Counted from the stretch's first letter, positions 414 to 61,132 are shown. The stretch: 64,000 bases of DNA from an uncultured Peptostreptococcaceae bacterium (GCA_964484935.1 CAZAFW010000005.1:291-64290), one strand, 5' to 3'. Translations and numbers: made by a program. Notes: generated by a model from the sequence alone, not told the origin.

Positions 414-556
414 ACAAAAACCGCCTAAAAAAATCACGGCGGTCAGACTATCCTTGCACACTTCAGACCTAAAAATTGAAGAAGGTCATGCAATCCGGAC
501 TCTTGACTTTGCGTCCCCGTCTTTCGGCGGGTTTGCCTTTTTCGTTGCATTCATTG
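414..556 (-). promoter_or_regulatory. c-di-GMP-I (GEMM-I) riboswitch A with terminator-type expression platform
   Basis: Minus strand reads GGCAAACCCGCC-GAAA-GACGGGGACGCAAAGUC. These are the GEMM-I core motifs, with a GNRA tetraloop on the P2 hairpin. A hairpin follows (ACCGCC..GGCGGU, 420-443), then UUUUUGUUUUU directly before the SD of the 1..368 gene. Confidence 0.8.
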
Positions 557-4131: not shown

Positions 4132-4275
4132 AAAAAATCAAAAAACCGCCGTAATCAATCTACGGCAGCCAGACTGTCCTGAGTTCACTGTTATGTATGG
4201 GGTGCGATTATTGCTTCTTTGGACGGACTCTCGGCTTTGCGTCCCCGCCTTCCGGCGGGTTTGCCCTTTTCGTAT
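4132..4275 (-). promoter_or_regulatory. c-di-GMP-I (GEMM-I) riboswitch C with intrinsic terminator, leader of the LPXTG adhesin
   Basis: Minus strand reads GGGCAAACCCGCC-GGAA-GGCGGGGACGCAAAGCCGAGAGUCC. A terminator follows (CUGCCGUA-GAUUGAU-UACGGCGG, 4146-4168) with UUUUUUGAUUUUUU, 38 nt before the start codon. Confidence 0.85.
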
Positions 4276-25298: not shown

Positions 25299-25440
25299 CC
25301 TCCTTTGAATTATCCCGATGATAAAGTCTTCTTTCGAAGGCTTAATGATACTTCGGCGGCTCGGCTGCCACGGGAATTCCCCAAGGCCCGTCACTTTGCG
25401 TCCTTTCCTTTCGGAAAGTTTGCCTTTATCGGTATTCCGA
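25299..25440 (-). promoter_or_regulatory. c-di-GMP-I (GEMM-I) riboswitch E, leader of the flp/tad operon; possible SD-sequestering platform
   Basis: Minus strand reads AAAGGCAAACUUUCC-GAAA-GGAAAGGACGCAAAGUGACGGGCC...CCCGU. Outer helix: CCGAUAAAG (25424-25432) pairs with CUUUAUC(AUC)GG (25315-25326). CCUUCGAA (25333-25340) can pair with UUCAAAGG, which overlaps the SD (25303-25310). No U-tract terminator is present. Confidence 0.8.
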
Positions 25441-26045: not shown

Positions 26046-26205
26046 ATAAAACAAACCCGTATCGCATACGATACGGGTCTTTCAACCTTTTTCCACCAAA
26101 AAACCAATTTGAGCATTTTCGGTGACCCAGCCACCATTGGTTTCACCCTTTAGGTCTGTGGTTTTGCGTCCCGGCCTTTCAACCGGTTTGCCGTTATCGA
26201 TATGC
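26046..26205 (-). promoter_or_regulatory. c-di-GMP-I (GEMM-I) riboswitch D with strong intrinsic terminator
   Basis: Minus strand reads ACGGCAAACCGGUU-GAAA-GGCCGGGACGCAAAACCACAGACC...GGUGGCUGGGUCACCG. A perfect 10-bp terminator follows (ACCCGTATCG 26055-26064 pairs with CGATACGGGT 26069-26078), then UUGUUUUAUU, then SD GAGGGGG. Confidence 0.8.
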
Positions 26206-40200: not shown

Positions 40201-40773
40201 TTATGTCATTTTCCTCGAGCCCGGCTTTTCCCACGGGATTCCGTTTTTGCACATGGGGCACTCATCGGGTTCATATACGCTTATGTCGGCCTTTACGGCG
40301 CTGTAGACTTCAAAGTCCAATGCTTGGCTTCCCCCGCGGTCAACAAGACATACTGCTGCGACTACTTGGGCTCCGAGGCTCTCAAGGAGATCTTTTACCT
40401 CCATTGTGGACTTTCCTGTTGTTATTACGTCCTCAGCAATTATGATTCTGTCGCCGGGGGCAATTTCAAAACCTCTTCTTAGGCACATTTCATTGTCCTT
40501 CCGCTCTGTGAAAATCGCTTTCCTCTTCATCTGCCTACCAAATTCATAGGAAGGTATTACTCCTCCCATTGCAGGTCCCACAAAATAATCGAATTTCAGG
40601 TCTTTTATTTTTTCCACAACCCCTGAAACCACCGACTCGGCTTTTTGTGGGTGAGCCAAAACCTTTGCGCATTGAACGTATCCCCCGCTGTGCTTTCCGG
40701 AAGAAAGCAGAAAATGCCCCTCGAGAATGGCTCCTGTCTCTTTGAATATTTCCATCAATTCCTTTTGATCCAT
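40201..40773 (-). CDS. pyrE: Orotate phosphoribosyltransferase
   Basis: PRPP-binding loop IIIAEDVITTGKS and HFLLSSGKHSG. Last gene of the pyr operon. Confidence 0.9.
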   Translation of the reverse strand: MDQKELMEIFKETGAILEGHFLLSSGKHSGGYVQCAKVLAHPQKAESVVSGVVEKIKDLKFDYFVGPAMGGVIPSYEFGRQMKRKAIFTERKDNEMCLRRGFEIAPGDRIIIAEDVITTGKSTMEVKDLLESLGAQVVAAVCLVDRGGSQALDFEVYSAVKADISVYEPDECPMCKNGIPWEKPGSRKMT

Positions 40774-40784
40774 TTTTTTCTCCT

Positions 40785-41687
40785 TTACAATATGCCTGTT
40801 ATCTGCGAGATGGTCTTCACATTTTCTCTGTCCATAAAGGCTTCTATTTCATCGACTATCCTGATCCCGGCTCTCAAATCCATAAAATTTGCAGTCCCTA
40901 TTTGTACGCATGACGCTCCCGCCATGATGAATGAAATTGCATCTTCTCCACTTGTTATTCCCCCCATGCCCATTATGGGCACATCGACGGCCTTTGCAAC
41001 TTGGTGGACCATCCTCAAGGCTATGGGGCGGACAGCCGGCCCCGACAGTCCGGCATATGTGTTGTCAAAAATGATTTTTCTGCTGTAAATGTCCACCGCC
41101 ATCGCCTGAACCGTATTTATGAGCGATATTGCGTCGGCCCCCGCCGAGACACATGCAGATGCTATTTCGGCAATGTCGCCTACGTTCGGCGACAATTTCA
41201 CCATCAGCATTTTATGTGTGGATTTTCGGATTTCGCTTACTATGCCGTATGCCGAATCAGCATTTGTGCCGAAAGCCATGCCCCCACTCTTTACATTGGG
41301 GCAGGATATGTTGAGCTCGACAATATCGAACGGGGTGGTCTCGATTCTTTTTACCGTCTCTGCATAGTCCTCGGTCCTCGATCCGCTAACATTGACAATC
41401 ACCCTTGTATCGAGCTCCGAAAGATGCCTTGCCTCATCCTCAAGGAATCCTTGAACCCCGGGGTTTTCCAGACCTACGCTGTTCATCATTCCAGACGGGG
41501 TTTCCCACACACGTATGCCCTTGTTTCCAGCCCTTTTCTCGAGTGTTATGCCTTTGGTGGATATCCCTCCAAGCTTTGATACATCGTATATCTCTCCGTA
41601 TTCCTTGCCGAATCCGAATGTTCCTGAAGCCATCACCACCGGATTTTTGAAACTCAATTTTCCAAAATCAACCTTGCTTGAGCTCAT
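40785..41687 (-). CDS. pyrD: Dihydroorotate dehydrogenase B, catalytic subunit
   Basis: FKNPVVMASGTFGFG, ELNISCPN and GMGGI motifs. Start moved to MSSSKV (ATG 41685-41687) with GGAGAGGA upstream. Confidence 0.9.
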   Translation of the reverse strand: MSSSKVDFGKLSFKNPVVMASGTFGFGKEYGEIYDVSKLGGISTKGITLEKRAGNKGIRVWETPSGMMNSVGLENPGVQGFLEDEARHLSELDTRVIVNVSGSRTEDYAETVKRIETTPFDIVELNISCPNVKSGGMAFGTNADSAYGIVSEIRKSTHKMLMVKLSPNVGDIAEIASACVSAGADAISLINTVQAMAVDIYSRKIIFDNTYAGLSGPAVRPIALRMVHQVAKAVDVPIMGMGGITSGEDAISFIMAGASCVQIGTANFMDLRAGIRIVDEIEAFMDRENVKTISQITGIL

Positions 41688-42384
41688 CTGGGAACACATC
41701 CTCTCCGGCAAAAACGGGACCGTCCTTGCATGTTTTTTTGTTTCCGTATTTCGTGCTGCAGGTGCATACAAGGCATGCCCCTATTCCACAAGCCATTCTC
41801 TTTTCCATCGATATGAAAATCTTGGCGCTAGTGCCTTGAGCCTTCCTTGTCAGGACTTCCATCATGGGTTCCGGACCGCAGGCAAAAATAATGTCGTAGT
41901 CCGAGGGGTCAAGCATGTCTGTGACATAGCCCCCTATGTCAATATTTATTGAGTCGGCATATTTTGAAAACCGGTTCGAATTTATGTCCTCTTGGGCATA
42001 TCCAAGATATATGTCCAGCTTTTCGGGATTCAAGTTCCATATTGTTTTGGCGGCCAATCTGAGAGGCGCAGTCCCAAGTCCTCCCCCGACGAGTGCAATA
42101 CGACCTTTTGCAGTCGGAAATCCGTTTCCGTAGGGACCTTCCAGGCTTATTTCATCTCCCGCTTTCTTTCGGGAAATTATTTTTGTGCCTTCCCCGCATA
42201 CCCTGTAAAGGAATACTATTTTTCCTTCTTCCAGATCATGTATGCTCAGAGGCCTTGAAAGAACAGGGTATTCCTCCCATGCGCGGACCATGTAGAACTG
42301 TCCCATGGCACCTTTGAAGCTTCCTTCAACCCCGATTTCATATATGTTTTCTGCAAGGCGGTTATTGTATAGGATTTTACTCAT
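41668..42384 (-). CDS. pyrK: Dihydroorotate dehydrogenase B, electron-transfer subunit
   Basis: FAD/NAD-binding fold and the C-terminal 2Fe-2S motif RMACGIGACLVCTC. Start moved to MSKILYN (ATG 42382-42384, SD GAAAGGA). Confidence 0.85.
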   Translation of the reverse strand: MSKILYNNRLAENIYEIGVEGSFKGAMGQFYMVRAWEEYPVLSRPLSIHDLEEGKIVFLYRVCGEGTKIISRKKAGDEISLEGPYGNGFPTAKGRIALVGGGLGTAPLRLAAKTIWNLNPEKLDIYLGYAQEDINSNRFSKYADSINIDIGGYVTDMLDPSDYDIIFACGPEPMMEVLTRKAQGTSAKIFISMEKRMACGIGACLVCTCSTKYGNKKTCKDGPVFAGEDVFPDELKQG

Positions 42385-43228
42385 TCGACAAGTCCTTTCC
42401 CATCTTTTCAACTCGTCCGCTTATGGCATCCATAAAATCGCTTTCACTTGCGGCATTCCATGCATGGGCAATTATTCCTCTCGATGAGTTGACCACTGCG
42501 CACGGGTCGCTTATGGCTTCCCTTATGTCTTTGCCTGTGCCGCCCTGCGCCCCGTATCCCGGTACAAGGAAGAACATCCCCGGGCATGCCTTTCTGACTT
42601 GGTGAAACTCTTTGGTGTTTTTTATTCCAACCACGCCGCCTATAGAGCTGTATCCGCTCCTGCCTGTAAACTCGGCTCCCCATTCGCCAACTTTTTTTGC
42701 CGTTTCAATGTAAAGGGGATTGCCGTTTGACAAAATCTTCTCCTGGAAATCGGCTGCTGACGGATTTGATGTCTTGACAAGAACAAACAGGCCCTTGTTT
42801 TTGTTCTTGACATAATCGAAATATGGGGATATTGCGTCCTCCCCCATGTATGGATTCACAGTCATGAAGTCTGCCTCGAACTCTCCACTGAAATGGGCTT
42901 TGGCATAGAGGCCTGCAGTTGACGATATGTCTCCCCTTTTGGCGTCCGCAATCGATAGCAGATCTTTCTCCCTTAGATAATCGAGGGTTCCTGCATATGC
43001 CTTCATCCCTTCGATGCCCTCCGCTTCGTAGCATGCTATCTGAAGCTTGAAGCATGCAGCCTTTTCACGGGCCGCATCTATGGCCAAGCGGTTGAAAGCG
43101 AAAATTCTTTCGCTTTTCGAATCGTATTTTTTTGTTATGAAATCGGGAATATAATCCATCCTAATGTCCAGCCCTACGCAAACCATTCCCTTCGAAACGA
43201 CTTCATCATGCAATTTGTCTACTATCAT
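42377..43228 (-). CDS. pyrF: Orotidine 5'-phosphate decarboxylase (type 2, long form)
   Basis: VCVGLD, DAKRGDI and VNSSRGI motifs, and position in the pyr operon. Confidence 0.85.
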   Translation of the reverse strand: MIVDKLHDEVVSKGMVCVGLDIRMDYIPDFITKKYDSKSERIFAFNRLAIDAAREKAACFKLQIACYEAEGIEGMKAYAGTLDYLREKDLLSIADAKRGDISSTAGLYAKAHFSGEFEADFMTVNPYMGEDAISPYFDYVKNKNKGLFVLVKTSNPSAADFQEKILSNGNPLYIETAKKVGEWGAEFTGRSGYSSIGGVVGIKNTKEFHQVRKACPGMFFLVPGYGAQGGTGKDIREAISDPCAVVNSSRGIIAHAWNAASESDFMDAISGRVEKMGKDLSNE

Positions 43229-44393
43229 AAATTACTCTCCCCTCTTTCATTGTAAGCACAATCTCACCTATTGTTTCCCAACCCTCGAAAGGAGTGTTTT
43301 TCCCTTTTGATAAAAAAGTTTCAGTTGAAATTTTCTTTACAGCGTCCAAATCGGCCAAAACCAGATCTGCATCCATCCCTTCTAAAAGGCGGCCCTTGGA
43401 AAGGCCGAGCAGCTTTGCAGGCTTCTCCGCCATCATTTCGACCAGCCTTCCAATGCCAATGTTTTCCCTTTCAAAAACAGTATGCACCATTTCAAATGCG
43501 GTTTCCACATTAGATATGCCGGGGCTTCCGCTCATTTTGTCTTCCCTGCTGTGGGGAGCATGGTCTGTTCCAATAACGTCAATCAGTCCGCTCCTTGCCG
43601 CTTCCAAAAGCGAAGCCCTGTCCTCCGTGGTTCCGAAGGGGGGATTTACCTTGTAATCCAGGTTGCCTGCGAAAAGATGATGCGGGGTGACTTCGCATGT
43701 GAGCAGGTCTCCGAAAGCCGCTTTGCCGGCCCTTATGAGATCGACGGTCTTTCGCTTGCTTATATGGCATATGTGCAGCCTTCCCGCAACCTCCGCCATT
43801 GTTCCCAAATGCCTTCGCACAGTCTTCGACTCGGGTTCGCAGTGGGCCATTACAATAAAGTCGAGTTCCCGGGACTCTCTAAAGGCTTCTTTGGCAATTT
43901 CTGAATCCGCAAGCGTCTTTCCGTCATCCGAGAAAAGGCCTGTAAGCTTTTTCATGGACCTGAAATCAACAGCTTCTTTTCCCTCAAGACCTTTCGTAAC
44001 TGCCGAAATTTGAAAAATATCGCACAGCCCCACTTCTTCATGCCTCTTCATTATTTGTTTGAAGACTTCTGGATTGTCGCATACCGGAGAGGTGTTGGCC
44101 ATTGTGCAAAGTGCCGTATATCCGCCCTTTACTGCCGCCGCTTCTCCTGTTTCCATGGTCTCCTTGCCCTCGCCTCCGGGGTAGCGCATATGAAAATGCA
44201 TGTCCGTGAATGCCGGCATGAGGCAAAGCCCCAGTCCGTCAATCGATTTTTCGCATTTTTCTTCGGCTTCCTCGATTTCGGAAATACGCCCCTGCTCAAT
44301 AACATCTTTTATCTTTCCGTCTTCGATCAGAATGGCGCCCGTGGAATCGAGATGAGAGTCAACCATTCTGACATTCTTCAATATAATTGTCAT
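43206..44393 (-). CDS. pyrC: Dihydroorotase
   Basis: DMHFHMRYPG (metal-binding HxH) and GTDHAPH. Start moved to MTIILKNVRMVD (ATG 44391-44393, SD AGGTGG), 8 nt after the pyrI stop. Confidence 0.9.
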   Translation of the reverse strand: MTIILKNVRMVDSHLDSTGAILIEDGKIKDVIEQGRISEIEEAEEKCEKSIDGLGLCLMPAFTDMHFHMRYPGGEGKETMETGEAAAVKGGYTALCTMANTSPVCDNPEVFKQIMKRHEEVGLCDIFQISAVTKGLEGKEAVDFRSMKKLTGLFSDDGKTLADSEIAKEAFRESRELDFIVMAHCEPESKTVRRHLGTMAEVAGRLHICHISKRKTVDLIRAGKAAFGDLLTCEVTPHHLFAGNLDYKVNPPFGTTEDRASLLEAARSGLIDVIGTDHAPHSREDKMSGSPGISNVETAFEMVHTVFERENIGIGRLVEMMAEKPAKLLGLSKGRLLEGMDADLVLADLDAVKKISTETFLSKGKNTPFEGWETIGEIVLTMKEGRVIYDSRQIA

Positions 44394-44401
44394 TTGCCCA
44401 C

Positions 44402-44824
44402 CTACGCCTTCACGGGAGTGTCGCAATATTCGCAAGTGTATATCTTGTTTTCCGGATCGGTGAGAGTGAATTCTATGTCGGGTATGTTCTCTATTGTCGA
44501 AACGCATCTGGGATTCTTGCATTTCAATATGCCCTTAACTTTTTCAGGTAGCTTAAGTTTTATTTTTTCGGTTATTTTTCCGTTTTCCACAATATTGACT
44601 GTAAGGTTGGGGTCTAAAAGCCCAAGCATAGTCATATCAAGATCAATTTCGTTTTCTATTTTAATAAGGTCTTTCTTGCCCATTTTTTCGGAAGGTATGT
44701 TCTTTATGAGAACAACCGTGTAATCCACTTTGTGCAATCCCAGGTCCTTGAATATTTTATGTCCGCAACCCGGCTTGATGTGGTCTATTACAATCCCTTT
44801 CTTTATGCTGTCAATTTTAATCAT
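44402..44824 (-). CDS. pyrI: Aspartate carbamoyltransferase regulatory subunit
   Basis: IKKGIVIDHI N-terminus and the Zn-binding C-terminus CKNPRC...CEYC. Confidence 0.9.
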   Translation of the reverse strand: MIKIDSIKKGIVIDHIKPGCGHKIFKDLGLHKVDYTVVLIKNIPSEKMGKKDLIKIENEIDLDMTMLGLLDPNLTVNIVENGKITEKIKLKLPEKVKGILKCKNPRCVSTIENIPDIEFTLTDPENKIYTCEYCDTPVKA

Positions 44825-45739
44825 CTACTCCACCCCCAGAAGCTGCATTATAAGCGCCATGCGTATGTACATGCCCATTTTTGCCTGTTCGAAATAAACC
44901 GCACGCTCGTCCGCATCCATGTCCGTTGATATCTCGTTTACCCTTGGAAGCGGATGCATTACTATCATGTCTCCCTTTGCCTTCTCCATCTTTTTGGCAT
45001 TTAAAAGAAAGAAATCCTTGAGCCTGAGATACTCGTCCTCACTAAAAAACCTCTCTCTTTGGACTCGCGTCATATAGAGTATGTCGAGTTTCCCAAGGCT
45101 CCCTTCAAGGTTTTGAGTAATCTCAAATTGGTCCTTGTCAAGCCTGTCGGTTATGTGCGGTGGTATCTCAAGTTCGTTTGGAGATATGAAAACAAATTTT
45201 ATATTCTCATATCTTGAAAGCGCCTTTACCAGAGAATGAACTGTTCTTCCGAATTTCAAGTCTCCGCAAAGGCCTATGACAAGATTGTCCAGGCGCTTTT
45301 TGTAGCGCCTTATTGTCATAAGGTCGGTAAGTGTCTGTGTCGGGTGTTGGTGGCCTCCGTCTCCTGCATTTATGAGCGGAATGACCGATTTTTTCGAGGC
45401 AAGAAGTGGCGCCCCCTCCTTTGGGTGGCGCATCACAGCTATGTCGGCATAGCATCCTATTGTTCGAATTGTGTCGCCTATGCTTTCCCCTTTTGAAACC
45501 GATGACGATCCCGGCTCGGAAAATCCTATTGTCTCCCCTCCAAGCCTCAGCATGGCCGCCTCAAAACTGAAACGCGTTCTTGTCGAAGGCTCGTAAAAAA
45601 GCGTAGCCAAAAGCTTCCCCCTGCATGCGTCCATGTATTTTTCGGGATTTTTCATAATCATTTCCCCCAGTTCAAAGAGCCCCTTAAGCTCCTCGACTGT
45701 AAAATCCCCCGGCTGAATCAAGTGTCTGTCCTTAAGCAT
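44825..45739 (-). CDS. pyrB: Aspartate carbamoyltransferase catalytic subunit
   Basis: [13 protein letters not shown] and HPLPR motifs. Start moved to MLKDRHLI (ATG 45737-45739, SD GGAAGGAAGG). Confidence 0.9.
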
Positions 45740-45786
45740 TGTAACCTTCCTTCCTGGCATCACGGTGCCAAATTAAAGTTGATTTG

Positions 45787-45880
45787 AAAAAAGCCTCTCC
45801 GCAGACGCGGAAAGGCATAGATGTCAAGTAAAAATTTATTCATTATAGCTACCTTTCCGGTCTCTCGGAACCAGATTAAA
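45787..45880 (-). promoter_or_regulatory. PyrR-type transcription attenuator of the pyr operon
   Basis: Minus strand hairpin CUGGU-UCCGAGAG-ACCGG, followed by AAAGG, resembles the PyrR-binding loop UCCAGAGAGGCUGAGAAGG. CGGAAAGG can pair with CCUUUCCG, the 5' arm of the terminator. The terminator is GCCUUUCCGC-GUCU-GCGGAGAGGC-UUUUUU (45787-45816). Confidence 0.65.
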
Positions 45881-45931
45881 GATATTCCCATTTCAAGAAA
45901 TATAACACGGATTCTTTTAAAAGTCAATCAG

Positions 45932-54480: not shown

Positions 54481-55863
54481 TTAATCCATTATCTGCCTTG
54501 CGAAACTTACTCCGTTGACGCTTGCCTGCATAAGGCCGCGCGTAATCCCCGCGCCGTCGCCCAAAGCGTACAGATTGGAAATGTTGGTTTCAAAATTTTC
54601 CCCAACCTTGACTCTGTTGGAATAGAATTTTACCTCCACTCCATACAAGAGGGTCCCGTTGCTTGCTATTCCGGGAACTATGTTGTCGAGAGCCATGATC
54701 ATTTCATCTATATCTTTCATTATTCTGTAAGGAAGAACGAGCGAGAGGTCTCCCGGAACGGCATCGGCAAGGGTTGGAACTATATTGTTTCTGGCTAGCC
54801 TCTGCACGGTTGTCCTTCTGCCCCGTCTGAAATCTTCATAGCGTTGAACTATTACCTTGTTGCCCGAAAGCATGTTCCCAAGCTTTGCTATGTGTTTGCC
54901 ATAAGCTATGGGGGCATTAAACGGCTCTGTGAAATGCTTTGTGACAAGCAGCGCAAAATTCGTGTTCTTGGTCTTTTTCTCCTCGGATTTGTAGCTGTGG
55001 CCGTTGACCACTGCAAGATTGTCTTCGTAGTATTCTGTGGAAACTTCCCCTCCCGGGTTGTTGCAGAATGTCCTCACCTTGTCGTCAAAAGTTGGAGTGT
55101 AGTAGACAAGCTTGCTTTCGTACATGTTCTCGTCAAGCTCCCTGGTTATCTCGCGGCGCGTTTCAACCCTAACTCCAATATCGACATCCCCGACCTCGGT
55201 GTCTATTTCAAACTTACTGCAGATTGCCTTGAACCATTCAGAGCCTTCCCTTCCTACAGAAACTACAACCTTGTCTGCGTAGTGCTCCTTGTCCGCAACC
55301 ACCCCGCGGATGGTCCCGTTCTCTATCAAAAGGTCCTTGACGGGATTCCTGAATGAAAGCTCCACCCCGATTTCCTGCAGATGCTTCTGAAGCTCTGCGT
55401 AAATGGTGTTTCCCACTTCTGTGCCCATGTGCCTTATGGGGCATTCGATCAAGTTGAGGTTGCTTTCTATGGCCTTCTTGCGTATGGATTTTATCCCTTC
55501 GCTTTCTTCCATTCCGTATACTTTCTTGTCGGCTCCGAATTTGATGTAGAGCCCGTCGACATATTCGATGAGCTTTTTGGTCTCTTCCCTTCCTATGTAG
55601 CTTGGAAGATTCCCCCCCACCTCTTCAGACAAGGACAGTTTGCCGTCCGACCACGCTCCTGCGCCGGCAAACCCCGTCGTTATGTTGCAGGGATTGCATC
55701 CCACACACTTTCCTGTCGTTCTTTTGGGGCATGTGCGCTTTCCTATAGGATTCCCTTTTTCAAGCATCAGTATTTTGCAGGAATCATCCAGCTTTTTCAG
55801 TTCAAGCGCCGCGAAAATGCCAGACGGTCCGGCTCCGACTATAATATAATCCCATTTTTTCAT
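54481..55863 (-). CDS. FAD-dependent oxidoreductase (COG2509-like, uncharacterised dehydrogenase)
   Basis: Dinucleotide-binding YIIVGAGPSGIFAALEL, a C-terminal GDGAGITRG motif, and a length of 460 aa. Confidence 0.7.
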   Translation of the reverse strand: MKKWDYIIVGAGPSGIFAALELKKLDDSCKILMLEKGNPIGKRTCPKRTTGKCVGCNPCNITTGFAGAGAWSDGKLSLSEEVGGNLPSYIGREETKKLIEYVDGLYIKFGADKKVYGMEESEGIKSIRKKAIESNLNLIECPIRHMGTEVGNTIYAELQKHLQEIGVELSFRNPVKDLLIENGTIRGVVADKEHYADKVVVSVGREGSEWFKAICSKFEIDTEVGDVDIGVRVETRREITRELDENMYESKLVYYTPTFDDKVRTFCNNPGGEVSTEYYEDNLAVVNGHSYKSEEKKTKNTNFALLVTKHFTEPFNAPIAYGKHIAKLGNMLSGNKVIVQRYEDFRRGRRTTVQRLARNNIVPTLADAVPGDLSLVLPYRIMKDIDEMIMALDNIVPGIASNGTLLYGVEVKFYSNRVKVGENFETNISNLYALGDGAGITRGLMQASVNGVSFARQIMD

Positions 55864-59694: not shown

Positions 59695-59875
59695 TAGATT
59701 TGTACTCGTATGGTGAACAATTTTTCCATAAGTGTACTCGAACGTTTTTAGGCCCCAATCCGTTCAAATCCCTTGAAGCTTGCAATGAAAGAGTTTTAGA
59801 TGTCATAAATTATTTGTTAATCATTTCAATTTTTTCTGAAAATTCTTTTAACTTAGAACATTTGTTTTTTCCTCG

Positions 59876-59912
59876 CAAACAAAACAAGAAGCCCATAAAA
59901 GGCTCCTTGTTT
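59876..59912 (-). terminator. Rho-independent terminator after the HesB-like gene
   Basis: AACAAGAAGCC (59883-59893) pairs with GGCTCCTTGTT (59901-59911) with one mismatch. TTTTGTTTG follows on the minus strand. Confidence 0.7.
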
Positions 59913-59925
59913 TATAAACTATTTG

Positions 59926-60240
59926 TTAACCGCAAGAGCTGCAATTGTCGCAGCCTCCGCCTGGAGCCTCGTTTACAGGTCGGACTCCATATCCGTTTCC
60001 TAATTTTTCAACCATCAATTCTCCGAATTCGTCAATGATGTAATCCTCTATCACGAATTTCAATCCAGAAGAATCATCGGTCAAATCGTTTTCTTTTTGC
60101 TCGTCCAGAGCAATACCGAATGACGGGCCGCTTCAGCCAACCCCCGCTATGTGGATTCTCAAAGTTTCGATTTCCGGCTTGTTTTCCTCAAGAAAGGCTT
60201 TTATTGAACCAACAGTAGTTTCGTCTATATGAACCTTCAA
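59926..60240 (-). CDS. HesB/IscA-like selenoprotein (104 aa) with in-frame UGA (Sec36) at 60133-60135
   Basis: Not in the ORF track because the UGA splits it. GGAGG lies 7 nt before the TTG start. My translation is (M)KVHIDETTVGSIKAFLEENKPEIETLRIHIAGVG-U-SGPSFGIALDEQKENDL...GGGCDNCSSCG*. The U aligns with the Cys of the IscA GCSG motif. The frame stays open for 68 codons after the UGA. Confidence 0.7.
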
Positions 60241-60322
60241 AAGTATACCTCCTTTATTGTTGATTGTCTTCAATTATGATTTGCTTATTATTATAATACC
60301 CAAAGTATGCGGATGCAAGCAA

Positions 60323-61132
60323 TTAGACTATTTCCATTATACCCGCCATGCGGCCGGTCTTGCCCTTGTCCCTCCTGTGGGAATAAAACAAATCATCCCT
60401 GCAAAATGTGCATAATCCAGAAACTCCAATATTCTCTGCCTTTACTCCGGCTTTCGCAAGCTGCATTCTATTGGCTTCCCAAAGGTCTACCTTCCACCTA
60501 CCCGGCTTTTCCGTCCCTAACAGAACCGATTCTCCGCAAAGCTCCGAAAACAGTTCAGCGACTTCCTCCTGAACCTCAAAACAGCACGGGCCTATGGAAG
60601 GGCCCACGACAGCGTGGCAGTCCGAGGCCTTACTGCCAAAGGCTTCTCCCATCGCCTCAATCGTTTTGCAACCTATCTCCTTCACCGTCCCCTTCCATCC
60701 GGCATGGGCTATCCCCACTGCCTTTTGGACCGGATCCGCAACAAACACTCCTGCGCAATCCGCGAAAAACGCCACAATGGGCCTGCCGGGCATTCTCGTT
60801 ATTATCGCGTCCTTTTCGAGCGCCCTTTCCCCAAGCCAAAACCTTTCTCCTCTGAATTCTTCGTCTATCAACGCTATTTCAACGCCATGCACCTGATTTG
60901 TGAAAACGGCATCATCCAATTCATATCCCATGTGCTCTGCCGCTTTTTCATGGTTCATAAGGACCGCTTCCCGGCTGTCTTCAGTAAAGAGACCCATGTT
61001 CATGCCTTTAAAGGGACCCTTGCTGAATCCTCCAGCCCTTGTCGTCACGCAATGATTTAAAAAACCGAGTTTTTCGAGATTGGGAAAACGCAGATAGGCT
61101 TCCTTGCCTTTTTTTTCTATTCGAACAGACAT
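60323..61132 (-). CDS. pgeF: Polyphenol oxidase-like / peptidoglycan editing factor PgeF (YfiH, DUF152)
   Basis: HCVTTRAGGFS, TNQVHG, IAHAGWKG and the C-terminal GLCTFC...FYSHRRD motifs. Confidence 0.85.
   Translation of the reverse strand: MSVRIEKKGKEAYLRFPNLEKLGFLNHCVTTRAGGFSKGPFKGMNMGLFTEDSREAVLMNHEKAAEHMGYELDDAVFTNQVHGVEIALIDEEFRGERFWLGERALEKDAIITRMPGRPIVAFFADCAGVFVADPVQKAVGIAHAGWKGTVKEIGCKTIEAMGEAFGSKASDCHAVVGPSIGPCCFEVQEEVAELFSELCGESVLLGTEKPGRWKVDLWEANRMQLAKAGVKAENIGVSGLCTFCRDDLFYSHRRDKGKTGRMAGIMEIV

What the first reader, a model, noticed from the sequence alone, without database searches (positions are those of the whole stretch)
59926..60240. Hidden UGA-recoded HesB/IscA-like selenoprotein gene missed by the ORF track
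Reading the minus strand from a TTG start with a GGAGG SD gives a 104-codon frame with a single in-frame TGA at 60133-60135. The residues around it (RIHIAGVG-U-SGPSFGIALDE) align with the IscA/HesB ...G-C-SG... cluster-ligand motif. The UGA therefore sits exactly where the conserved Cys belongs.

The frame stays open for 68 more codons and ends in a Cys/Gly/Ser-rich tail (GGGCDNCSSCG). A terminator follows. A family of HesB-like proteins in which this Cys is replaced by Sec is established knowledge (the TIGRFAMs HesB-like selenoprotein family, as I recall it).

Downstream of the UGA, GCCCGUC...GACGAGC can form a 7-bp stem with one mismatch and a GGU-containing loop. This is a possible bacterial SECIS, but it is not compelling by eye.
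Basis: partly seen in the sequence, partly recalled or inferred. Interest (0 to 1): 0.65.

Follow-up and report, generated by a model that had tools for sequence, protein, structure and literature searches.

The report
Missed HesB-like selenoprotein gene
A small gene that standard gene finders cut in two at a TGA codon almost certainly encodes a 104-residue iron-sulfur-carrier-like protein with selenocysteine at that codon; it is a new member of a selenoprotein family known since 2004, so the result is an annotation fix and not a discovery.

Summary
Window 59926-60240 (-) has a TTG start 7 nt after GGAGG, one in-frame TGA (60135-60133), 68 more sense codons, and a strong terminator.

The selenoprotein reading is supported by comparison:
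- 67 homologous genes in 62 loci carry TGA, never TAA or TAG, at this column.
- Cys (TGT) paralogs exist.
- The part after the TGA evolves under purifying selection within the window's own clade.
- The gene is 100% identical in four independent metagenome assemblies.
- TGA is the commonest ordinary stop in the window, so genome-wide recoding is excluded.

The best family matches are the two HesB-like selenoprotein models, NF038090 and TIGR01911. Both score below their curated cut-offs. The published UxGP motif is present.

The real candidate is the hairpin UUGCUC-UGGAC-GAGCAA (60113-60097), 25 nt after the UGA. It fits the published bacterial SECIS model and its silent sites are frozen across the family.

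Two things were not shown: Sec machinery in this genome (none in the 64 kb) and selenium incorporation. Function as an Fe/Fe-S or redox carrier is inferred.

Verdict: new member of a known kind, with modest interest.

The parts
59926..60240 (-). Complete coding sequence of a 104-residue HesB/IscA-like selenoprotein: TTG start, Sec36 encoded by UGA, TAA stop
   Evidence: Searches give the frame. One search gives the best HMM hits, NF038090 and TIGR01911. Searches show 69 distinct family proteins sharing invariant R28, G33, G35, U/C36, G38, P39, F41, G42, D46, D52, G83 and a C-terminal Cys. One search shows 100% identity in L067-L070.
60248..60255 (-). Shine-Dalgarno sequence AAAGGAGG, with GGAGG 7 nt before the TTG start at 60240-60238
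   Evidence: The SD and the TTG start are conserved in clade relatives L001 and L005-L008. The start aligns with the Met1 of other family members.
60133..60135 (-). In-frame UGA read as selenocysteine (residue 36), at the column of the first ligand Cys of A-type carriers
   Evidence: TGA occupies this column in 67 genes and TGT in 6 paralogs; TAA or TAG never occurs there. It aligns to the Cys of GGCSG in PDB 1NWB. TGA is an ordinary stop in 21 of 46 large ORFs of the window.
60097..60113 (-). Candidate SECIS hairpin: 6-bp stem UUGCUC/GAGCAA with apical loop UGGAC; the loop starts 25 nt after the UGA
   Evidence: It pairs in 94.9% of cells across 62 sequences. RNAalifold recovers its core independently. 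Silent sites are frozen: GAG 62/62 vs 18% elsewhere in the same genes, CUG 59/64 vs 9%, GCU 62/63 vs 34%. Cys paralogs vary at these sites. It fits the bSECIS model of PMC13188914 Fig. 2. A covariance model built without the window's clade hits the window only at 60091-60135, 58.9 bits, E about 7e-13.
60126..60138 (-). Possible mini-hairpin enclosing the UGA (GGCUG-AAG-CGGCC); status uncertain
   Evidence: It is predicted in the window's MFE and in the family consensus. Gly codons flanking the UGA are GGY in 85-88% of genes, against 51% elsewhere in the same genes. No compensatory changes were seen.
59876..59915 (-). Intrinsic terminator: a hairpin followed by UUUUGUUUG, 11 nt after the stop codon
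   Evidence: -23.3 kcal/mol, z = -5.5, 0 of 200 shuffles fold as well. The consensus scan did not flag it.
60290..60318 (-). Possible sigma-70-type promoter TTGCAT-17 nt-TATAAT in the 82-nt gap after pgeF; read by eye, weak -35
   Evidence: Read from the sequence. The scan did not report it because the -35 hexamer matches only 3 of 6. This is inference only.

Best explanation
Window 59926-60240 (-) is a single monocistronic gene for a 104-residue HesB/IscA-like selenoprotein.

Translation starts at TTG 60240, helped by a strong SD. At UGA 60135-60133 the ribosome does not terminate. SelB carrying Sec-tRNA(Sec) binds the hairpin UUGCUC-UGGAC-GAGCAA (60113-60097), whose GG-containing loop begins 25 nt downstream, and delivers selenocysteine as residue 36. 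Translation then continues for 68 codons to TAA, and a strong intrinsic terminator ends the transcript.

In the protein, Sec36 sits in the motif G-U-S-G-P, where A-type Fe-S carriers have their first ligand Cys. The C-terminal C-x2-C-x2-C-G tail takes the place of their C-G-C ligands. The protein therefore most likely binds iron or an Fe-S cluster, or cycles through a selenenylsulfide, using Sec plus the tail thiols.

Shown here: the gene structure; conservation of the TGA and of the downstream protein; nucleotide-level constraint on the hairpin; family relationship.

Inferred, not shown: SelB-dependent decoding in this organism; selenium incorporation; the biochemical role.
For: Frame, SD, TGA and stop are.

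TGA sits at the same column in 67 genes from 62 loci (Peptostreptococcaceae, Romboutsia, Tissierellales, Acidaminobacter, Atribacterota, Anaerolineales, Cloacimonas). The frame stays open for 58-79 codons afterwards. No TAA or TAG occurs at that column.

TGT paralogs lie next to Sec genes in L009-L012, L017 and L018.

Within the window's clade, changes after the TGA are mostly silent: 15 synonymous vs 2 non-synonymous against L007, and 10 vs 1 against L006.

The gene is identical in four independent assemblies.

TGA is the commonest ordinary stop in the window, and both flanking genes end in it.

The best HMM hits are NF038090 IscA_HesB_Se (61.7 bits, E 7e-17, full length) and TIGR01911 HesB_rel_seleno (57.5 bits). 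The UxGP motif is listed for HesB-like selenoproteins in PMC13188914 Table 1. PDB relatives 1NWB and 2APN align their ligand Cys to the U, and their C-terminal Cys motif to the tail.

Relatives in Atribacterota have tRNA-Sec, selA (521 bits), selB (340 bits) and selD (333 bits) directly beside the gene.

Family neighbours support an Fe-S or thiol role: glutaredoxin in 19 loci and Mrp/NUBPL Fe-S NTPase in 5.
Against: No tRNA-Sec, selA, selB or selD lies in the 64-kb window or in about 7 kb beyond it. The Sec-decoding trait of this organism is therefore unverified.

The protein is below the curated cut-offs of both selenoprotein HMMs, and of PF01521 and TIGR00049.

The SECIS hairpin is almost invariant, so support comes from frozen silent sites and not from compensatory changes. 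Only one cell changes on both sides.

Family loci were retrieved with the peptide patterns FGIALDEQ and LRI[HY]IAGVG. Amino-acid conservation of that stretch is therefore partly by construction, although all synonymous codons were allowed.

The Fe-S and glutaredoxin neighbours are absent from the window's clade. No structure model could be made. There are no experimental data.
Confidence: 0.86

Rival explanations
1. Pseudogene: an IscA/HesB-like gene was inactivated by a TGY-to-TGA nonsense mutation, and the downstream frame is a decaying remnant.
For: Gene callers stop at the TGA. No Sec machinery is seen in the window.
Against: The same TGA is present in 67 genes across several phyla. The downstream 68 codons have no frameshift or stop and show a strong excess of silent changes within the clade. 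Silent sites of the downstream hairpin are frozen only in TGA-bearing genes. The gene is identical in four assemblies.
Confidence: 0.02
2. UGA is a true stop here. The locus makes a 35-residue peptide and, separately, a 52-residue protein from the internal TTG at 60084.
For: the ORF listing reports both fragments. JGI gene calls contain the N-terminal stub and, in L002, the 52-aa fragment.
Against: Protein conservation runs continuously across the TGA and through the 16 codons between the TGA and the internal TTG (GPSFGIALDEQKEND), which neither fragment would encode. Full-length Cys paralogs and PDB homologs align end to end. Other family members have no internal start at that place.
Confidence: 0.03
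3. The UGA is decoded, but not as Sec. It is read through a reassigned code (UGA = Trp or Gly) or by near-cognate read-through that inserts Trp or Cys.
For: Two public protein entries for relatives (P0002, P0003) carry W at this position.
Against: Those W residues come from gene calling with code 4 on short contigs; the DNA has TGA. In the window TGA ends 21 of 46 large ORFs, including both neighbours. The position is the metal- or redox-ligand Cys column, and the family is a documented selenoprotein family. Relatives sit beside selC-selA-selB-selD.
Confidence: 0.04
4. The gene is a selenoprotein gene, but the functional SECIS is the first reader's stem GCCCGUC/GACGAGC (60128-60122 with 60105-60099), at least in this clade.
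For: It is the more stable local helix in the window (-9.1 kcal/mol). Column pair 15/36 is G-C in the window's clade and A-U in 35 other sequences.
Against: Across the family only 68% of cells pair, one column never pairs and three columns fail in 26-42% of sequences; the median energy is -3.4 kcal/mol. Its 16-nt loop and 11-nt spacing violate the bSECIS model, which requires a loop of 3-9 nt and spacing of 16-37 nt. GAC also occurs in L045 and L049 without a compensating partner. It is mutually exclusive with the frozen hairpin.
Confidence: 0.07

Closest known systems
HesB-like selenoprotein family (TIGR01911 HesB_rel_seleno; motif UxGP; listed in PMC13188914 Table 1 and counted in PMC1794560 Table 1)
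   Same: Small protein of about 100 residues with a single Sec in G-U-x-G-P at the first ligand-Cys column of IscA/HesB. Cys homologs exist. A hairpin with a G-containing loop follows the UGA. It occurs in anaerobic Clostridia and relatives. TIGR01911 is the second-best HMM hit.
   Different: It scores 57.5 bits, below the curated cut-off of 66.35, and matches only profile positions 3-79 of 92. The C-terminus is a three-Cys tail (C-x2-C-x2-C-G), where most members retrieved here have a single C-terminal Cys (37 of 63 Sec forms). It is at most 45% identical to any member outside its own clade.
NF038090 IscA_HesB_Se (NCBIfam subfamily model)
   Same: Best hit, covering nearly the whole profile (positions 4-100 of 101), E 7e-17.
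   Different: It scores 61.7 bits against a cut-off of 85. Romboutsia-type members also fall short at 61-65 bits. This model alone would therefore not name the window's clade.
A-type Fe-S carrier proteins (IscA/SufA/ErpA; PF01521, TIGR00049; solved relatives Aquifex Aq_1857 1NWB and Haemophilus HI1723 2APN)
   Same: Homologous along the whole length (1NWB, E 1.3e-7). The U aligns with the Cys of G-G-C-S-G, and the C-terminal Cys cluster aligns with their C-G-C region.
   Different: The first ligand is Sec, not Cys. The tail spacing is C-x2-C-x2-C and not C-G-C. Scores are below the PF01521 and TIGR00049 thresholds. It does not lie in an isc or suf operon.
Bacterial SECIS consensus model (bSECISearch model as summarised in PMC13188914 Fig. 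2)
   Same: The apical loop is 5 nt with G at position 2 followed by G. The upper stem is 6 bp. The spacing from UGA to loop is 25 nt. The local MFE is -9.9 kcal/mol.
   Different: The sequence is nearly invariant across phyla among the loci retrieved here, whereas bacterial SECIS elements are described as generally dissimilar between genes. No Rfam family matches it. The Anaerolineales members (L057, L063) lack this sequence.

Membership tests
HesB-like selenoprotein (TIGR01911 / NF038090) | Score at or above the curated HMM cut-off | tested here: not met
   TIGR01911 scores 57.5 against 66.35, and NF038090 scores 61.7 against 85, with U replaced by C. They are nevertheless the two best hits. 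Other clear TGA-bearing members (Romboutsia type) also fall below both cut-offs.
HesB-like selenoprotein (TIGR01911 / NF038090) | In-frame UGA at the first ligand-Cys column, motif UxGP | tested here: met
   G-U-S-G-P at residues 35-39. The motif is as listed in PMC13188914 Table 1. The column aligns to the Cys in 1NWB.
HesB-like selenoprotein (TIGR01911 / NF038090) | Cys-containing homologs with Cys aligned to the UGA (Sec/Cys pair) | tested here: met
   TGT paralogs occur in L009, L010, L011, L012, L017 and L018. They are up to 45% identical to the window protein.
HesB-like selenoprotein (TIGR01911 / NF038090) | Coding conservation continues downstream of the UGA | tested here: met
   The frame stays open for 58-79 codons in all loci. 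Within the clade, silent changes outnumber replacements after the TGA.
HesB-like selenoprotein (TIGR01911 / NF038090) | SECIS hairpin immediately downstream that fits the bacterial model | tested here: met
   The hairpin at 60113-60097 has a 5-nt loop UGGAC, a 6-bp stem, 25-nt spacing and an MFE of -9.9 kcal/mol. Silent sites are frozen. The leave-clade-out covariance model gives E about 7e-13.
HesB-like selenoprotein (TIGR01911 / NF038090) | Host genome has the Sec-decoding trait (selA, selB, selC, selD) | not testable with these tools
Atribacterota relatives have all four genes adjacent.
HesB-like selenoprotein (TIGR01911 / NF038090) | Selenium is actually incorporated at the UGA | not testable with these tools
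   This needs 75Se labelling or mass spectrometry.
A-type Fe-S carrier (IscA/SufA/ErpA; PF01521, TIGR00049) | Score at or above the Pfam or NCBIfam threshold | tested here: not met
   PF01521 scores 17.3 against 26.3. TIGR00049 scores 30.2 against 58.8.
A-type Fe-S carrier (IscA/SufA/ErpA; PF01521, TIGR00049) | Three ligand cysteines: C in G-C-S-G plus a C-terminal C-G-C | tested here: inconclusive
   The first position is Sec. The tail has three Cys spaced C-x2-C-x2-C and not C-G-C. They align to the CGCGSSFSCG region of 1NWB.
A-type Fe-S carrier (IscA/SufA/ErpA; PF01521, TIGR00049) | IscA fold and Fe or Fe-S binding | not tested
Binding needs biochemistry.

The most novel reading that the evidence does not exclude
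The window's clade, together with the Romboutsia-type genes, may be an un-modelled subfamily of HesB-like selenoproteins. Both score below the cut-offs of both curated models. In this subfamily one Sec plus a three-Cys tail could give a four-ligand (Se,S3) site within a single chain, able to hold a cluster or metal without the dimer bridging used by IscA. Its SECIS is so constrained that the RNA dictates the peptide motif (I)ALDEQ across phyla.
Probability: 0.2. Interest if true: 0.5.

Novelty: new member of a known kind. Interest (0 to 1): 0.3.

Why it matters
On the practical side, this is a real gene that public gene calls on the same organism either omit or truncate. Relatives have entered a large protein collection with Trp written at the Sec position. 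The two curated HMMs that should rescue such genes score this clade and the Romboutsia clade below threshold. A whole branch of the family is therefore probably under-annotated in Peptostreptococcaceae.

On the scientific side it adds little to what has been known since HesB-like selenoproteins were described. It does supply a clean, sequence-defined SECIS hairpin that could serve as a search model. It also supplies neighbourhood clues to a still unknown function: glutaredoxin, Mrp/NUBPL, and the sel operon in Atribacterota.

Tried and rejected
1. It is not conserved and lies outside the bSECIS geometry.

2. Rfam gave no SECIS or other relevant match. I ran gathering thresholds on the whole window and a permissive E-value search on 59850-60350.

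3. The simple promoter and terminator scan found no terminator and no convincing promoter. Direct folding then showed the terminator.

No exhaustive HMMER search and no 3-D model were therefore obtained.

5. The first word-indexed protein search found only 3 relatives. Full-length products are rarely called, so DNA-level retrieval was needed.

6. A scan of the window for other TGA-interrupted frames gave 145 candidates. Apart from this gene, they were all opposite-strand noise or ordinary gene ends. No second selenoprotein gene was recognised.

7. tblastn found no Cys paralog in the window.

8. I looked for tRNA-Sec in the window and in the clade loci and found none.

9. Pseudogene, two small ORFs and code reassignment were each considered and rejected (see the rival explanations).

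10. The neighbourhood analysis gave functional hints for the wider family but nothing that transfers to the window's clade.

Full report
**Observation.** A TTG start lies at 60240-60238, 7 nt after GGAGG (AAAGGAGG, 60255-60248). A single in-frame TGA lies at 60135-60133. It is followed by 68 further sense codons ending GGGCDNCSSCG, with TAA at 59928-59926. Mechanical ORF listing splits the locus into a 46-aa and a 52-aa fragment. A strong intrinsic terminator follows at 59915-59876: a 16-bp stem, -23.3 kcal/mol, z = -5.5, then UUUUGUUUG. The simple consensus scan did not flag it. The TTG start and the SD are conserved in the closest relatives.

**Is the TGA real and meaningful?** The 315-nt gene is 100% identical in four independent metagenome assemblies, two from ENA and two from JGI (L067-L070). 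It is therefore not a sequencing or assembly error.

A word-indexed protein search found only three relatives. One was an ortholog stub ending at the same place. The other two were 36-40%-identical proteins with W at the critical column. Their DNA shows that the W is a TGA translated with the wrong genetic code.

DNA-level retrieval from the species-representative genome collection then gave 62 loci. In 67 genes the codon at this column is TGA, and it is never TAA or TAG. The frame stays open for 58-79 codons afterwards. The taxa are Peptostreptococcaceae, Romboutsia, Tissierellales, Acidaminobacter, Atribacterota, Anaerolineales and Cloacimonas.

Six paralogs with TGT at the column lie 400-650 nt from a TGA copy, in L009-L012, L017 and L018. 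That is the classic Sec/Cys pairing.

Inside the window's own clade (L001, L005-L008; 89-96% identical), differences in the 68 codons after the TGA are mostly silent: 15 vs 2 against L007 and 10 vs 1 against L006. That segment is therefore translated and under purifying selection.

TGA is the most frequent ordinary stop in the window (21 of 46 large ORFs), and it ends both flanking genes. A genome-wide reassignment of TGA is excluded.

**Family.** With U written as C, the best NCBIfam matches are NF038090 IscA_HesB_Se (61.7 bits, profile 4-100 of 101) and TIGR01911 HesB_rel_seleno (57.5 bits). Generic A-type carrier models follow. PF01521 is weak at 17.3 bits. All of these are below their curated cut-offs.

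Scoring ten representatives shows that only some TGA-bearing members pass TIGR01911 (Proteiniborus 72.6, Atribacterota 68.4). Romboutsia-type members and the window's clade pass neither model.

The literature lists the HesB-like protein as an established prokaryotic selenoprotein family. PMC13188914 Table 1 gives TIGR01911, motif UxGP and one Sec. PMC1794560 Table 1 counts 11 bacterial members. The window has U-S-G-P.

Solved relatives are A-type carriers: Aquifex Aq_1857 (1NWB, E 1.3e-7) and Haemophilus HI1723 (2APN). The U aligns with their GGCSG cysteine, and the tail aligns with their C-terminal Cys motif.

An alignment of 69 distinct family proteins gives near-invariant R28, G33, G35, U/C36, G38, P39, F41, G42, D46, D52, G83 and a C-terminal Cys. 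The window's clade is at most 45% identical to any other member. Three-Cys tails occur in 22 of 63 Sec forms, and the C-x2-C-x2-C-G spacing is specific to this clade.

**SECIS.** Across 62 sequences, however, only 68% of cells pair, one column never pairs and the median energy is -3.4 kcal/mol. Its 16-nt loop, starting 11 nt after the UGA, lies outside the published bacterial model. That model requires a loop of 3-9 nt, a stem of 4-16 bp, a G in the first two loop positions, 16-37 nt from UGA to loop, and an MFE of at most -7.5 kcal/mol (PMC13188914 Fig. 2).

A different, mutually exclusive hairpin meets all of these criteria. It is UUGCUC-UGGAC-GAGCAA (60113-60097), with a 5-nt loop whose second and third bases are GG. 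It has a 6-bp stem, 25-nt spacing and a local MFE of -9.9 kcal/mol. It pairs in 94.9% of cells, RNAalifold recovers its core unaided, and it is part of the window's own MFE fold.

Because the hairpin is nearly invariant, covariation is uninformative. The argument rests on frozen silent sites:
- Glu is GAG in 62 of 62 genes, against 18% elsewhere in the same genes.
- Leu is CUG in 59 of 64, against 9%.
- Ala is GCU in 62 of 63, against 34%.

The Cys paralogs, which encode the same or similar residues, use GCA, UUA and GAA freely. The retrieval patterns were peptide patterns, so they did not impose these codons. They did favour genes with the peptide FGIALDEQ, and this bias must be kept in mind.

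A covariance model built only from members outside the window's clade gives one significant hit in the 64-kb window, at 60091-60135 (58.9 bits, E about 7e-13; the next hit has E about 7). In genomes with both forms it scores Sec genes at 53-73 bits and their Cys paralogs at 9-47 bits. Rfam has no matching family.

**Sec machinery.** None is present in the window or in about 7 kb beyond its end.

In six Atribacterota relatives a tRNA-Sec gene lies 1-2.3 kb from the HesB-like gene. In L044 the intervening genes are selA, selB and selD, all far above their curated cut-offs. Zhang et al. list C. difficile, a cultured member of the Peptostreptococcaceae, with six selenoproteins (PMC1794560 Table 3). 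The trait is therefore common in this family. That is background, not evidence for this organism.

**Function.** Nothing here demonstrates function. The protein is a homolog of A-type Fe-S carriers, with Sec at the first ligand position and thiols at the C-terminus.

In the wider family the gene often lies on the same strand as a glutaredoxin (19 loci, directly downstream in five). It also lies near an Mrp/NUBPL Fe-S P-loop NTPase (5 loci) or a 4Fe-4S-domain protein (5 loci). These fit an Fe-S or thiol/selenol-redox role.

The window's clade has different, clade-specific neighbours: ClpB, PgeF, an SDR epimerase/dehydrogenase and an NT5C-like protein. It looks monocistronic. I therefore commit to 'Sec-containing A-type-carrier-like metal or Fe-S binding or transfer protein' as the most likely role, at about even odds. 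A selenenylsulfide redox role is the main alternative.

**Verdict.** The SECIS assignment needs correcting. Two caveats remain: HMM scores are below threshold, and the genome's Sec trait is unverified. The gene is a new, somewhat divergent member of a known selenoprotein family, and its main value is as an annotation correction.

Noticed in passing
L044 4330-9069 (also L038 2628-2723, L042 8537-8633, L046 2136-2231, L051 7893-7989, L058 2760-2856): In Atribacterota the HesB-like TGA gene lies 1-2.3 kb from tRNA-Sec. In L044 the cluster is selD, selB, selA, tRNA-Sec, one 212-aa lipoprotein-like ORF and then the selenoprotein gene. It is the only selenoprotein gene seen physically linked to the machinery.
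   Followed up: partly
L009 9634/10106, L010 1308/1714, L011 10106/10512, L012 9635/10106, L017 1247/1907, L018 10106/10759: Tandem pairs of a Cys (TGT) and a Sec (TGA) paralog lie 400-650 nt apart on the same strand. This may be a selenium-independent backup copy. The window has no such partner.
   Followed up: partly
P0002 (L003 401-703) and P0003 (L004 601-897): Two entries in the public protein collection have Trp at the Sec position because the short contigs were gene-called with a TGA = Trp code. The DNA has TGA. This is a systematic way for selenoproteins to enter databases mistranslated.
   Followed up: yes
window 60126-60138 (-), and the same columns in alignment A3: The Gly codons flanking the UGA end in C or U in 85-88% of family genes, against 51% elsewhere in the same genes. 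A 5-bp mini-hairpin that encloses the UGA is predicted in the consensus. Its meaning is unknown.
   Followed up: partly
L057 9088-9141 and L063 6522-6575: The two Anaerolineales members keep the TGA but lack the conserved hairpin sequence (14-18 bits with the covariance model). They must use a different SECIS.
   Followed up: no
19 loci, e.g. L040 10254-10508, L056 8772-9002; L056 10278-11390; L028 10284-10847: Recurrent neighbours of the family are a 76-aa glutaredoxin (C-P/S/G/V-Y/H-C), an Mrp/NUBPL-type Fe-S P-loop NTPase with a FeS_assembly_P domain, a Fer4_5 protein, a DsbD_TM/CcdA-like protein and ArsR regulators. None of these flanks the window's clade.
   Followed up: partly
window 54481-55863 (-); L037 8230-9828; L043: The FAD-dependent protein (PF21688 FAD-depend_C) a few kb from the window gene has homologs directly upstream of the HesB-like gene in Maledivibacter (L037) and Petromonas (L043). 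This may be a weak recurring association.
   Followed up: no
window 434-546, 677-790, 4160-4274, 25351-25433, 26118-26202 (all -): Five c-di-GMP-I type riboswitch aptamers lie in one 64-kb window, several of them upstream of large secreted or surface-protein genes and a pilus/secretion-like cluster.
   Followed up: no
window 45784-45886 (-) and 40201-45763 (-): A PyrR binding site lies upstream of what looks like a pyrimidine biosynthesis operon. The ORF at 41672-42411 (-) ends in TGA and overlaps the start of the next gene, which explains one apparent 'TGA-interrupted' frame. Gene names (pyrB to pyrE, pyrK) were inferred from position and were not tested.
   Followed up: partly
L032 2370 and 5041; L018 and L022 (Romboutsia timonensis); L054 and L055: Several genomes carry two Sec-encoding copies of the gene. 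In L032 they lie on one contig. In R. timonensis the TGA-proximal 72 nt and the conceptual protein are the same in both copies, which lie about 100 kb apart. In one Tissierellaceae MAG they lie on two contigs.
   Followed up: no
window 59876-59915 (-): The consensus terminator scan reported nothing here. Direct folding shows one of the strongest hairpins one could ask for. The scan's negative results should not be trusted on their own.
   Followed up: yes
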